Part shown: positions 11,731-57,500 of the stretch, one piece after another
How the letters are laid out: every line of letters begins with the position of its first letter
Numbering within the stretch: the first letter of the stretch is position 1
Assembly: GCA_951406725.2 (NCBI GenBank)
Contig: OX597841.1
Span: 1,488,001 to 1,552,000, forward strand
Reading direction: 5' to 3'
DNA: 64,000 nt
Source of the DNA: Octopus vulgaris
Lineage: Eukaryota
Translations under genes and position numbers: made by a program
Notes under the pieces: generated by a model
The model's input: the letters and a program-made list of their open reading frames with translations, nothing else
The model's database searches: none
Told to the model about the DNA's origin: nothing

Positions 11731-14700
11731 ATTATTATTGATTATATATATATATATATATATATATATATATATATACCAAAGTTTTTACAACTCTTCA
11801 TTAGATTCGTGAATCAGTCTGTACTGTGTGTGAAAGAGTTGTGTCTCATGTGATATTTAAAATCTTGATTTGCTAATACTTGCCAAATAATACTGTTTAG
11901 AGATTAATGAGTACGTCCGTGCGTAGCGTTTGAGTGTGTGTGTATGTGTATGTATATATGATGGATGGATGTACGTATATATGAAGCATATGTATTTTAT
12001 GCATATATTCTACATGTGTTTATCGTATATATGTCAATTACATATGTATATTTATTTTATATATATATATATACATATGTGTGTATATGTGTGTGTATAT
12101 ATATATATATATATATATATATATATATATATATATATATATATACATATATATACATATATATATATATTATTATATATATATATATATACATATATAT
12201 ATATATATATATATATATATATATATATCTATGTATATATTGTGTGTGTGTGTGTGTGTGTATGTATGGATGTATCACATATGTATGTAAATATTAGGGT
12301 CATGTGTGAGTTTTAAGTAAGGAAAAATATTTACTTTGTGGAACGTTCTCTATCCACATATGTTGTGACCAAATTTTTTCTCTCGTACTTTACCAAGTTT
12401 ATAAAAGAATGTTATAAAGTACTGACCTCCGTCGGTTATTTTGGTGAAGTGCTCTGAAGCAGTGATGGCTGTTCTTTCGTTCGTTAGAGCTAGTCAAAAC
12501 AATACACGAACAAATCTTCATCAGATCTCTAATCAAACTCTATTTAACGTGCGAAATCAACAACTGTCAGCTGAAAACAAATCCAGCATAAAATACAAAC
12601 CCTTTCTCTGACAGATTTCCACTGACAATCGCATCAAAACACCTCTGTATAAACGTTTGTACAGTTATAATAAATGACATATAATATATATATATTGTCA
12701 GACATTCTCTTAGCCAACTTCAGAGTTCACTTGATGTTTACACACAAACCAATTTGTGTATGTAATGAGTATGATGTGTATAATGTGTATATTAACATAT
12801 ACATACAATTGTAAACGCAAAATAAACACGCTGATTTGCGTGTTCACACACACACACACACACACACACATATGTACACACATACAGACATATATGTACA
12901 TGTATATGTAGGTATATGTTTGTGTGAGTGTGCTGTTGGAACATCTTTTTTATAATTAATTAATTAATTAATTAATTAATTAATTGATTTAGTCTTTCCT
13001 AATCCTTCCCTAATCAATCACTTTTAAAATTAATTGTATTATATCTAGGATAAAGATTAATAAATGTATCCTTTTTTTTTTCCACTTTATTCATATCTAG
13101 AAAAAATCTGTACAATGTACAGGCAGTGGGGAGATATTATATACATATATATGTATGTATATTTTGCATGTGTGTATGTGTATATATATATGTGTGTGTG
13201 TGTCTATATATATATATATATATATATATATATAATTTTAATCCAAACGGGAAACAAAAAAACAACAACAAGGGAACAATTACAGTATTATTATTAATAG
13301 GCGCTCAGGAAATGGAAGCAGGGAGGTATGACGTTTCGAGCGGAGCTCTTCGTCGGAAACATAAAGAAGGAAGAGAGAGGAAAGAAAGATCCCGGAGCGG
13401 GCAACGGAGATAGAGAAAAAAACGGCTGGTGTTAGCAGAAGCACATGGTGAAAGGCGGATGTTTACGATAACAAGAGCAAAGTGGGTTTTTAAAGGCAAA
13501 AGAGTGGAGACAAGGTTGGTAACGCAACAGATGTGTGTGTATGTGTGAGTGTGTGCGTGTGCGTGTGTGTATGTGTGTGTGTGAGGCGAGGTAAAAAAAC
13601 AAAAAATATATGTATGTGTTAGTGTGTGCGTCTGTGTGTAGGCGTGTGAGGTAGGGCGAGACGGTGGTCAGCATAGCAGCAGCATAGCAGACAAAGGTCA
13701 GTAGTGAGAAAAGGGAGGAAGGAGGAAGGGAGGGAGGGGAAGGGGTGGGGGCGTATGTAGCGTGCCAGCGTGTGTTGAGTAGTAATGTGTGTGTGTGTCC
13801 AGTGTCGTGGTAGTATTAGTGGCGAGTAGATTGAATGTGTGTAAGAGTGAGGTATATGTTTAAGCAATGTGTGTATATGTGTGCGCGTGTGTGTAACGAA
13901 AAAAGGGGGGGTTTAGGAAAAGGACTCCAGCGGAGGGGAAGATGGAGGAGTGGTCCCGCGGAGACGGGCGTGGGAAAACCCAACGACAAGCGACATCCCA
14001 GGAACGGGCGGGAGGTCTCGTCGGATCCAAGGGCGAGGTGCATGCGGGCGCATGCGTGCGCGAACCGGCGCAAACGCGTGTGTGCGCGAGCCTGCGAGTG
14101 TGCGCGTACGTATGTGTGCGTGTGGATGTGTGAGTGTGTCTGTGTGTATGTCTGGGTGGCAGTGTGTCCGATGAATGTATGTGAGTATGTGTGTATTTAT
14201 GTGTGTGCATAGATGTATGTCCGTGTGTGTGTGTGTGTGTGTATGTGTGTATGAGTGTGTATGTATGTACGTGTGGGTGTGTGTGAAGTGTGTGTATGTG
14301 CATGTGTGTGCGCGAACATACAGGTGTGTGAGTGAGTGCGTGTGTGTGTATGTATGTGTGAGTGTGTATGTATGTGTGTGTAGGATGCATATATATATGT
14401 GTGTGTGTGTGTGTCTATATATATATATGTGTGTGTGGGGGTAGGTGTACATATAGATATATAAATGATTATGTGTACATATATGTATTTATCTTTGTGT
14501 ATGTGTGTGTGTGTATATATATATATCCATTTCATGAACCTCTTTTTTGTACTCAATATAACGGTTTTAGGAAGAATTTTTAGATGCTGCACACGCAATT
14601 GTTGACAAAACTCCACTGATCGTCGATTATATAAAATAACAAAATGCATCAACTGATGTTGTGAAATTTCTTACACGCATAAATTATTGAATACTTAATA

Positions 14701-16182
14701 TTAATCGTTTATCTAAATGTCGACATTGAACATTAATTAATTGTACCACTGATGAAAGTGAATGAGATAAAAGGGGACAAGATTCTAAAAACCGATAGAT
14801 GGAGAAATTAAGGAATTGTTAGGATCTCTTCGGTTTGACCGGCAGTTTTTTTCTAGCGGTGCCATATGAAATGGTGAAACTGTCACCCATATTTATGACC
14901 CTAGTATCGATCTATTGCATTTCAATCTGCTATCTTTCTTAGAGTTGTGAAGTGATGGTGCCGTCCTGACGCAGCAAATAGGGTGAGATAGACTGATAGA
15001 AAGAGAAAGACAGAGAAAGCAAAAGAGAGAGAGAGAGAGAGACGGAGATGTATTCCTGATGTGATGTTTCTTGAGTTCATTTAGTCTTCCATTCCTCCTT
15101 GGAAAAAATTTAAAAAACAAGGGAAGCGGTTGATTACATTAAAGTACCAGTTATATATTAGGGCAGAATAGTTCATTCAGTTTGTTTAACTTTATACTTT
15201 ATGCTTCTTCCAAAAATAATTTGCCCCACCTTCCATCCACTGATCTCCCTCTAGCATTATTATTTCTCTCCATCTCCGTTCACGCCTTCCTTCCCACCAT
15301 GGCCACCACTGTGAATTACCCTACCACTGTGATCCACTGTCACGAACCCTTCTTCCGTCATAAACACAAGTGTCAGAGTCATTGAAACAATGTGGCCAGC
15401 TCTTGCACGACCATGACCACCTTCCTGATGCCATCAACTACCCACCACAACCACTGCCACCACCACTACCACCACTACCCCACCACCACCACCACAACCA
15501 CCACCACCACCACCACCACCACCACCACCACAACTCACCACCACAACCACCACCACTACCACCACCACAACCACCACCACCACCACCACACCACCACCAC
15601 CACCAACGCAATCCTTCAACACTTCCACAATCTCAGTTTAAATTTTCACCATATCGTTCCCCACCATGCCAGTCACCAAAGAAGCAAATCCTAATTTCTG
15701 TTCTTACATCTCCTCTGATTGGAATCTTTATAAGGACAACAGACAACAGAATCGGTAGAGCGTCCCACTAATATATCGTGTGTTATTCAGTTATGTTCAG
15801 TTATGTGGGTGACCTCAATGAAAGAGTTAGGATAAAATTAGTAGCAGTTATATACTGGGATTGATGAAATCAAATGCATTAAATATGTTGGAAATTAACA
15901 TATTAATTAAAATGTAGTAATTAAACAAATTACAACAGACTTAACATGAGAATTAATTAAATTGTTGTTTCTTGTTCTTTCTATGGCCACATGTATAAAT
16001 ATGTGTGCGTGGAGATATAAATATTTATATATATATATGTATATATATATGTATGTATATGTATATGTATATATATATATATATATATATATATATATAT
16101 GATATATAGGTATATTATACATTTGTTACCAATGCCAAAGAGAATTTTAGTGTGTGTATAATATATATATAAATTTATATAT

Positions 16183-16570
16183 AGGCGCAGGAGTGGCTGT
16201 GTGGTAAGTAGCTTGTTTAGCAACCACATGTTTCCGGGTTCAGTCCCATTGCGTGGCACCTTGGGCAGGTGTCTTCTACTATAGCCTCGGGCCAACCAAA
16301 GCCTTGTGAGTGGATTTGGTAGACGGAAACTGAAAGAAGCCCGTCGTATATATGTATATATATGTGTGCGTGTATGTTTGTGTTTGTCCCCCTAGCATTG
16401 CTTGACAACCAATGCTGGTGTGTTTACGTCCCCGTCACTTAGCGGTTCGGCAAAAGAGACTGATAGAATAAGTACTGGGCTTACAAAGAATAAGTCCCGG
16501 GGTCGATTTGCTCGACTAAAGGCGGTGCTCCAGCATGGCCGCAGTCAAATGACTGAAACAAGTAAAAGAG
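16183..16570 (+). mobile_element. tRNA-derived CORE-type SINE (resembles octopus OR families), full length
   Basis: A box tggctgtgtgg, B box gggttcagtccc, CORE-like ccttgggca.gt, internal TA/TG microsatellite, tail ...gactgaaacaagtaaaagag. Confidence 0.85.
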
Positions 16571-56561: not shown

Positions 56562-57088
56562 CAGTGGCAGGCTGGGTCTAAAAATATTGGTTGCCAGGAA
56601 ACTAAGGGAACCCGCCCACAACTACAAGAGGGCCCAGCCACAACTACAATGCAATCTTTAATTTTTTTTTGTTAACCCTTTCGTCACCATATTTATTTTG
56701 AGATGTTCTGTGTTTCTTTCAATTAATTTTAAATATAACGACGAATTTAGTAAAATAGCTTCATTATCATTAAGCAAGTGTTAGGAACATAAATTGTGAC
56801 TAAGGTTTGGTGGAAGAATTTTGATTCAAAACTTATGAAAACAAGACATTTGTACGACAGAGCCAGAGGCGGTTTCCACGGGGTTGGTATTGAAAGGGTT
56901 ACAAGTATTCTTTTCCACTGTCTACAAACACAGCCAGGCTGAAATAATGTATTCTTCCGGGAGTGAATAAAAAATTCCCAAACTTGAGGAGATGGGCCTC
57001 TTATATATGGGCCCCATATATGGACTCTATTGGGGCAGGGGCCCCCCTTGCCATGGGGCATGCTGGCAACCTGGGCAGTCCACCACTG
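56562..57088. mobile_element. hAT-like MITE containing a nested piggyBac-like MITE
   Basis: TIRs cagtggcaggctg / cagtccaccactg; 8-bp flanks tgtgtaca / tctgtata (6/8); GGGCCC subterminal motifs. Confidence 0.55.
56676..56898. mobile_element. piggyBac-like MITE
   Basis: TTAA|ccctttcgtcacca ... tggtattgaaaggg|TTAC. Confidence 0.65.
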
Positions 57089-57160
57089 TCTGTATATATA
57101 TATATATATATATGTGTGTGTGTCTGTGTGTAGTTTGGACATCTATATATATATATATAT

Positions 57161-57500
57161 AACAATTGCAGCGTGGAAGGTGTTTATAAGCTATTTAAGA
57201 AACACACAAAACCGTTAGATTCACCTCAACATTTAAATTTAATTTGTCAAAATATTTTCGTCGCTTTGAGACCGCGACCTGTTCACTGACAAAACTTCAT
57301 GCTGCATTGTCAGTGAACAGGTCGCGGTCTCAAAGCAATGAAAATATTTTGACAAATTAAATTTAAATTTTGAAGTGAATCGAACGGCTTTTGTGTGTTT
57401 CTTAAATGGCTTATAAACACCTTCCACGCTGCAATTGTTTTCGTTCCAGCACACAATCACAGATCAGGTCACTTGCTATGCAAGTACATCTCCGTAATAT
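57161..57500. mobile_element. Penelope-like fold-back + tail (G3:C8 hammerhead family)
   Basis: As 45332-45683; the left arm has an intact fold on the minus strand. Confidence 0.7.
57243..57293 (-). ncRNA. Minimal type-I hammerhead-like motif with G3:C8 core
   Basis: tttgtca-GTGAACA-G-GTCGC-ggtctcaaa-GCGAC-GAAA-ATAT-TT-tgacaaa. Confidence 0.6.

What the first reader, a model, noticed from the sequence alone, without database searches (positions are those of the whole stretch)
13326..57500. A set of variant-core hammerhead ribozymes in Penelope-like fold-back mini-elements
Seen: at least five unrelated short repeat families share one fold: stem I, a 7-nt core, one extra nt, stem II, GAAA, a tiny (usually palindromic) insert, UH, then stem I. 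Each has a different core: CCGACGA (22169, 13326), UUGAAAA (24733), CUGAUGC (28475), CUGUUGA (39373), GUGAACA (57243, degenerate at 45490), plus long-stem-II forms (50709, 54909). Several sit in asymmetric inverted repeats with a one-sided tail between (TA)n tracts. Established: Penelope-like retroelement termini carry minimal type-I hammerheads that lack helix III and act as dimers, and they often leave inverted truncated termini; C3-G8 is a tertiary Watson-Crick pair. Inference: this genome hosts a diverse, probably under-annotated set of non-canonical self-cleaving motifs that standard CUGANGA searches would miss.
Basis: partly seen in the sequence, partly recalled or inferred. Interest (0 to 1): 0.8.

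Follow-up and report, generated by a model that had tools for sequence, protein, structure and literature searches.

The report
Penelope hammerheads with altered catalytic cores
Short leftover ends of Penelope-like jumping genes in a mollusc genome carry tiny hammerhead-ribozyme motifs of a known kind, and one abundant family has two paired catalytic-core letters swapped (G3-C8), which suggests selection on a working ribozyme, though cutting has not been shown.

Summary
The motifs are real: a strict descriptor finds 6 hits with G10.1-C11.1 against 0.13 in shuffles. They match the published minimal type-I hammerheads of Penelope-like element (PLE) ends. The extra core base, palindromic helix III, opposite-strand pairs, fold-back with tail, (TA)n targets and the exact UUGAAAA core are all in print.

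I could test family-wide letters for two families by laying four public runs. The GUGAACA family keeps C8 in 88-95% of the signal in four organisms, and G3 stands in 4 of 4 window arms. A published mutagenesis found this swap the only tolerated change in that region. I found no natural case in print, but key papers were unavailable. The CUGAUGC family is polymorphic: C9 is 73-85% in three runs, and canonical A9 is 93% in the fourth.

No PLE ORF lies in the window, and no cleavage signal was seen. The scan noted G3-C8 hammerheads earlier in phages and protist elements. Verdict: new variant of a known kind.

The parts
57161..57497 (.). Family C fold-back insertion: two head-to-head 5'-truncated ends (arms 57161-57439) plus a one-sided tail of about 58 nt, flanked by TA repeats
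57243..57293 (-). Best G3-C8 minimal hammerhead: stem I 7 bp, GUGAACA, extra G, stem II 5 bp opened by G10.1-C11.1, GAAA, AUAU, UU
57307..57355 (+). Second G3-C8 motif of the same insertion, stem II decayed
45332..45681 (.). Family C fold-back insertion with tail; G3-C8 motif at 45416-45465 (-), decayed motif at 45490-45540 (+)
29853..30048 (.). Third family C insertion, arms truncated inside or 3' of the hammerhead, same outer ends and tail
28345..28639 (.). Family B insertion: short inverted end with tail of about 60 nt, then sense copy with CUGAUGC hammerhead at 28472-28516 (+); lies in an intron of the kinase gene, sense strand
44962..45322 (.). Family B insertion, opposite orientation; decayed hammerhead at 45088-45132 (-)
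24484..24872 (.). Family D near-perfect fold-back (97.8%) with tail of about 32-35 nt; UUGAAAA (U3-A8) hammerhead in both arms (24732-24787 +; core at 24653 -)
22168..22299 (+). Family A fragment between TA tracts; CCGACGA (U4C) hammerhead at 22169-22203
13236..13530 (-). Family A copy with pyrimidine-rich upstream part; CCGACGA hammerhead at 13326-13360
39373..39460 (+). Relative of family A; CUGUUGA (A6U) motif at 39373-39410, single copy, intronic on the sense strand
54842..55000 (-). Insert of about 160 nt between TA tracts; CCGAAGA (U4C) motif at 54909-54963 with 8-bp stem II
50709..50803 (-). Doubtful or decayed motif: canonical CUGAAGA, long AU-rich stem II, palindromic insert, broken stem I
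21976..22075 (+). Partial family A relative carrying only the 3' half of the hammerhead

Best explanation
The inserts are 5'-truncated, dead ends of several Penelope-like retroelement families. SHOWN: fixed outer ends, variable inner truncation, an inverted copy and a one-sided tail in B, C and D, TA-rich targets, and a minimal type-I hammerhead layout. INFERRED: a PLE reverse transcriptase/GIY-YIG protein from a master element primes at two nearby internal sites (giving the tail), stops early and switches template or folds back (giving the inverted arm). In the master's tandem transcript two hammerheads would pair through the palindromic helix III and cleave slowly after the UH. Family C carries a compensated G3-C8 core, probably kept by selection on the 3-8 tertiary pair and probably weakly active as a dimer (about 0.55). 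A9C, U4C and A6U are single changes in subfamilies or single copies, probably weak or dead (A9C active about 0.3). The scattered fold-back copies are probably inactive because the antisense arm buries the motif.
For: Enrichment over shuffles. Features the descriptor of Cervera and de la Pena did not demand but their families show: extra base between 9 and 10.1, G10.1-C11.1, palindromic insert, U-rich upstream; most motifs here have them. Three family C insertions share outer ends and tail but differ in inner truncation; two family B insertions do likewise, matching the published PLE insertion unit and the two-start origin of the tail. C8 at 45502 in 94.6, 92.2 and 95.1% of contig depth in X2, X4, X3 and in 200 of 227 reads in X23; stem II restored at 45508 (85-96%); G12 restored in B (97-99%) (shares computed). 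C3G/G8C is the only rescued double mutant of that region in a pairwise mutagenesis and partly restores an Anolis PLE hammerhead. Modelled double hammerhead of 57286-: -27.0 kcal/mol against -32.0 for the dimer minimum, helix III 6 of 6 pairs. Whole fold-backs fold as single long hairpins of -208 to -292 kcal/mol.
Against: No PLE ORF found: 0 of 150 ORFs scanned (the longest 150 of 305 that passed a complexity filter, out of 687) hit an RT or GIY-YIG family; the test is weak because pieces I recognise as LINE and mariner remnants also had no hit. No genome was available to walk upstream. No pile-up of read ends at the predicted cleavage sites 45093, 45423 or 45533 among 3709 laid RNA reads; the only listed pile-up is at the fold-back centre, 45471 (13 of 47). 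G3 itself is supported only by the absence of a change row (40 rows shown, 185 not shown). In X23 the stem II pair at 45436 is restored in only 22 of 138 reads, beside an indel that may shift the alignment. H17 of family C is U. For the other motifs the modelled double hammerhead lies 12-29 kcal/mol above the dimer minimum (B -12.4 vs -28.7; A -7.5 vs -24.7). Tails of B and C (58-60 nt) are longer than the published 30-40 bp.
Confidence: 0.8

Rival explanations
1. PLE-derived ends whose hammerheads are all catalytically dead relics; variant cores were fixed by drift in master copies mobilised in trans, and the fold is kept only as a protein-binding or priming structure.
For: Hammerhead cleavage was not needed for insertion in vitro and no RNA ends were seen at the cut site in Anolis. 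A9C is the majority in three organisms although A9 changes lower activity (A9U at least 20-fold in an artificial construct). A9C and A6U motifs sit on the sense strand in introns of a kinase gene. No end pile-up.
Against: Family C changed exactly two core bases, both by transversion, and they are the pair that rescues activity; by my own arithmetic two random changes among 11 core positions give this pair about once in 500. All other core positions of 57286- are canonical.
Confidence: 0.3
2. The fold-backs are MITE-like DNA transposon derivatives with TA target sites, and the hammerhead likeness is chance or post-hoc pattern fitting.
For: Long inverted arms, TA context, no coding sequence. My descriptors were written after seeing the motifs. 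F and G are single copies with imperfect stem I.
Against: One-sided tails and arms truncated at different inner points; 6 against 0.13 hits with G10.1-C11.1; family-wide letters repair the fold where the window copy has decayed; D has a core identical to a published PLE family.
Confidence: 0.07
3. The variant cores are post-insertion decay of canonical CUGANGA motifs in individual copies.
For: A' (CUGUUGA with insert CA) is a single copy with a CpG-type change; 45126- and 45497+ are clearly decayed; family B is canonical in organism E (803 of 863 reads A9).
Against: C8 at 88-95% in four organisms and C9 at 73-85% in three; CCGACGA in 2 of 2 family A copies that are about 80% alike; UUGAAAA in both arms of D.
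Confidence: 0.1

Closest known systems
Minimal type-I hammerheads (min-HHR) of metazoan Penelope-like elements (Cervera and de la Pena 2014, PMC4209133; read: parts 1-2 of 4 of the text, parts 1-2 of 3 of the supplement)
   Same: No or tiny palindromic helix III, extra base between 9 and 10.1, G10.1-C11.1, short helix I, U-rich upstream, many families per genome, mostly solitary or opposite-strand pairs; U3-A8 covariation, with UUGAAAA plus extra base listed for Schistosoma mansoni family 4.
   Different: The 56-motif alignment of Fig. S3 (read as text) shows only CUGANGA and UUGANRA-type cores: no G3-C8, U4C, A6U or A9C. No ORF linkage shown here.
PLE insertion unit with inverted 5'-truncated copy, tail and microsatellite target (Craig et al. 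2021, PMC8557442; Frangione et al. 2024, PMC11167929; passages only)
   Same: Inverted adjacent copy, one-sided tail, (TA)n preference.
   Different: Published tail is 30-40 bp; B and C have about 58-60 nt. Clade (Penelope/Poseidon, Neptune, Nematis, Hydra) cannot be assigned without the ORF.
Natural hammerhead core variants (Perreault et al. 2011, PMC3088659; sections 8, 9 and passages; Eckert et al. 2023, PMC10085705, passages)
   Same: U3-A8, A6C, U4C (viroid) and A9U occur in nature, several with low activity.
   Different: G3-C8 and A9C are not named in the parts read; figures were not visible.
Engineered C3G/G8C double mutants (Roberts et al. 2023, PMC9901934; Frangione et al. 2024; review PMC8495972; passages only)
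   Same: Same base swap, partial rescue of activity.
   Different: Here the swap is natural and is the majority state of a repeat family in four organisms.

Membership tests
Minimal type-I hammerhead of PLEs | Stems I and II around a 7-nt core and GAAA...UH | tested here: met
   A, A', B, C, D, G; not met for F (stem I 2/4)
Minimal type-I hammerhead of PLEs | Core CUGANGA or U3-A8 covariant | tested here: not met
   Met for D and F only; C has G3-C8, A and G have U4C, B has A9C (A9 in organism E), A' has A6U
Minimal type-I hammerhead of PLEs | Extra base between 9 and 10.1, and G10.1-C11.1 | tested here: met
   A, A', B, C; D and G have an added A before GAAA and no G10.1-C11.1
Minimal type-I hammerhead of PLEs | Palindromic helix III allowing a dimer | tested here: met
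   A 4/4, C 6/6, D 6/6, G 8/8, F 8/8; imperfect in B 4/6 and A' 2/4
Minimal type-I hammerhead of PLEs | Self-cleavage 3' of H17 as a dimer | not testable with these tools
   One RNA run showed no end pile-up at the predicted sites; ordinary RNA-seq is a poor test
Penelope-like element | RT plus GIY-YIG ORF linked to the terminus | tested here: inconclusive
   No hit in 150 window ORFs; no genome held; collection scans gave only chance matches
Penelope-like element | Inverted 5'-truncated copy with one-sided tail | tested here: met
   B, C, D; not seen for A, A', F, G
Penelope-like element | Insertion into microsatellite or TA-rich targets | tested here: met
   Flanks: TA-rich on both sides for 8 of 9 inserts examined, on one side for the ninth
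Non-LTR retrozyme | Tandem repeat units each with a type-I hammerhead (definition) | tested here: not met
   Copies are solitary or head-to-head
MITE / fold-back DNA transposon | Symmetric terminal inverted repeats defining both ends | tested here: not met
   One end carries a 32-60 nt tail absent from the other

The most novel reading that the evidence does not exclude
An abundant animal retroelement family has fixed a G3-C8 hammerhead that cleaves as a dimer, and sister families tolerate U4C and A9C. The natural hammerhead core in PLEs is then wider than CUGANGA/U3-A8, standard searches miss whole high-copy families (possibly some elements scored as hammerhead-less), and the compensated swap is direct evolutionary evidence that PLE hammerhead catalysis is under selection.
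Probability: 0.4. Interest if true: 0.62.

Novelty: new variant of a known kind. Interest (0 to 1): 0.42.

Why it matters
Whether PLE hammerheads do anything in vivo is open: they cut poorly in vitro and were dispensable for insertion in the one reconstituted system. A family-wide compensated swap of the 3-8 tertiary pair argues for selection on the active fold. Family B, with A9 and C9 subfamilies side by side, is a natural experiment on whether cleavage affects copy success. In practice, descriptors should allow G3-C8 before an element is called hammerhead-less.

Tried and rejected
No whole genome was held, so genome-wide family alignments were not possible. Rfam on the whole window listed 150 of 633 matches, all hairpin or microRNA look-alikes below their gathering scores; focused searches gave no hammerhead. 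A 19-base family C pattern gave 4 metagenome loci, none continuing into the fold, and 0 viral loci. A family A pattern gave 31 viral loci, none with the family's flanks. Short family motifs had 0 hits in the held supplements of PMC8557442 (cut when stored) and PMC13282606; their sequence libraries were not visible and may contain these families. Depth along the element was not used for copy number or truncation points, because it dips at every divergent letter of the window copy. Earlier-note look-ups by sequence and place gave nothing. Lunse et al. 2017 and Arkhipova et al. 2017 were not held, and Przybilski and Hammann 2007 did not come up. Searches for a natural G3-C8 in print listed none by title or abstract start; I read passages of only some listed papers. 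PMC11014351 passages added nothing. Rejected: 50709 as a variant core; chance hits at 33766, 45318, 49352 and 9344.
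Full report
Setting. The window is A/T-rich, microsatellite-laden animal DNA. One long exon (26707-28254) and two short ones (39123-39251, 40133-40276) belong to a Ser/Thr kinase gene on the + strand whose named relatives are all molluscs. That it is an octopus is my recall of its SINE-like repeats, not a tool result. PLEs make up 6.83% of the Octopus vulgaris genome, in 190 families (supplement row). 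No whole genome was held.

Observation. All listed motifs are present, and I parsed each into stem I, core, stem II, GAAA, insert and UH. A first descriptor gave 6 hits against 1.35 in 40 shuffles, 3 of them unrelated. A second, anchored on a near-palindromic insert, gave 8 against 2.5, and 6 against 0.13 when G10.1-C11.1 is required. These come from three or four independent families (Poisson p 3e-4 or 1e-5). Both descriptors were post hoc, and the second misses 13356, D, F, G and 45126. Corrections: A (22173+, 13356-) and A' (39378+) are related, with a partial fourth copy at 21976. F (50709) has a canonical CUGAAGA core and only 2 of 4 stem I pairs. Family B has a second copy at 45126-, and family C a third insertion at 29853-30048.

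Anatomy. The three family C insertions share both outer ends and a tail of about 58 nt on one arm only, while the inner ends of the arms differ. The two B insertions have a short inverted end that carries a tail of about 60 nt. At 28421-28425 the two B arms overlap in five bases, judged from the upstream loose-end consensus, which fits a template switch (inference). D is a 97.8% fold-back with a tail of 32-35 nt and the motif in both arms. A, A', F and G show no inverted arm. Flanks are TA-rich. This is the published PLE insertion unit: inverted 5'-truncated copy, tail and microsatellite bias, with the tail explained by two reverse-transcription starts.

Are the cores family traits or decay? 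The stretch 57161-57496 is held by 20 of 24 listed runs from 12 studies; five coded organisms hold half of its words or more. I laid 4 of the 24 runs on 44960-45700, which holds one B and one C copy (shares). Contig shares are depth-weighted and are not copy counts.

Family C: where the window copy has decayed (45501-45502), the runs read A7 at 98-99% and C8 at 94.6, 92.2, 95.1% (contig runs X2, X4, X3; organisms A, C, B) and 200 of 227 reads (RNA run X23, organism E, mostly under 95% alike). No change row appears at G3 (45497) or in the left-arm core, but only 40 of 225 rows were shown. G3 stands in 4 of 4 window arms and C8 in 3 of 4. Stem II is repaired at 45508 (85-96%) and at 45436 in the three contig runs (96-98%), but in only 22 of 138 X23 reads, next to an indel.

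Family B: G12 is repaired (97-99%). Position 9 is C in 78, 73 and 85% and A in 20, 26 and 15% of the three contig runs, but A in 803 of 863 X23 reads, with C9 in 0 of 863. A9C is therefore a subfamily state next to a canonical one. Families A, A', D, F and G could not be tested this way; U4C stands in both A copies and independently in G.

Mechanism. Shown: the layout and the family-wide letters. Inferred: master PLE transcripts carry tandem motifs that pair through the palindromic helix III and cut slowly, as proposed for minimal PLE hammerheads. The modelled double hammerhead is near the dimer minimum only for 57286- (-27.0 vs -32.0 kcal/mol); for the others it lies 12-29 kcal/mol above, and for F 60. 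[quoted passage not shown] That argues for selection in family C and for weak or no activity of U4C, A6U and A9C, although U4C and A9U exist in working natural ribozymes. The fold-back copies themselves fold into one long hairpin on either strand, and the A9C and A6U motifs sit on the sense strand in kinase introns, so the scattered copies are probably inert. X23 gave 3709 laid reads on both strands with no pile-up at the predicted cut sites.

Not shown. No RT or GIY-YIG hit in 150 of 305 filtered ORFs; this test is weak, as visible LINE and mariner remnants were also missed. Collection scans found no relatives. Cleavage is untested.

Comparison. The extra base, G10.1-C11.1, palindromic insert, opposite-strand pairs, high diversity per genome and U3-A8 with the exact UUGAAAA core are published. 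G3-C8, U4C, A6U and A9C are absent from that paper's 56-motif alignment. G3-C8 in nature was not found in searches, but Lunse 2017 and Arkhipova 2017 were not held, figures are invisible, and the repeat libraries of two relevant papers were not readable. Earlier unchecked notes of this scan report G3-C8 hammerheads in phages and protist elements and fold-back PLE scars in other animals; I did not test them. Papers seen: PMC4209133 (parts 1-2 of 4 of the text, supplement parts 1-2 of 3); PMC3088659 (outline, sections 8-9, passages); bioRxiv 2026.07.22.740005 (part 1 of 5); passages only of PMC8557442, PMC11167929, PMC13282606, PMC9901934, PMC6765202, PMC8495972, PMC10085705 and PMC11014351; supplement searches of PMC8557442 and PMC13282606.

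Verdict. Real, mostly ordinary PLE termini with minimal hammerheads. The notable part is the family-wide G3-C8 core, and secondarily the A9/C9 polymorphism. New variant of a known kind; interest 0.42.

Noticed in passing
window 11353-11629, 51215-51442, 38012-38162, 38331-38440, 63867-64000: Further fold-backs, the first two related and with a one-sided extension, with no hammerhead by my scans; possibly ends of hammerhead-less PLEs such as Naiads.
   Followed up: partly
window 45320-45331 and 45682-45693: The family C insertion is flanked on both sides by the same 12-base palindromic A/T stretch and abuts the tail of a family B insertion; possible target duplication and nested insertion.
   Followed up: no
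window 26707-28254, 39123-39251, 40133-40276 (+): Exons of a Ser/Thr kinase gene with mollusc relatives; the first exon is unusually long, about 1.5 kb.
   Followed up: partly
window 30551-31516 and many other places: A SINE-like repeat with a tandemly repeated internal unit of about 184 bases, four or more units at 30595-31516.
   Followed up: no
window 33732-34445 and 47692-48144: Remnants that look by eye like a mariner transposase end fused to an RTE-type LINE end, and a CR1/L2-type LINE end; no Pfam hit; labels are recalled.
   Followed up: no
window 33165-33694, 37433-38006, 53136-54017, 55074-55477: A dispersed repeat family with internal rearrangements, starting in TA repeats; unclassified.
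   Followed up: no
window 45436-45447: RNA reads of organism E keep a different stem II/loop II letter pattern on this arm; a compensated stem II subfamily is possible but the rows needed were not shown.
   Followed up: no
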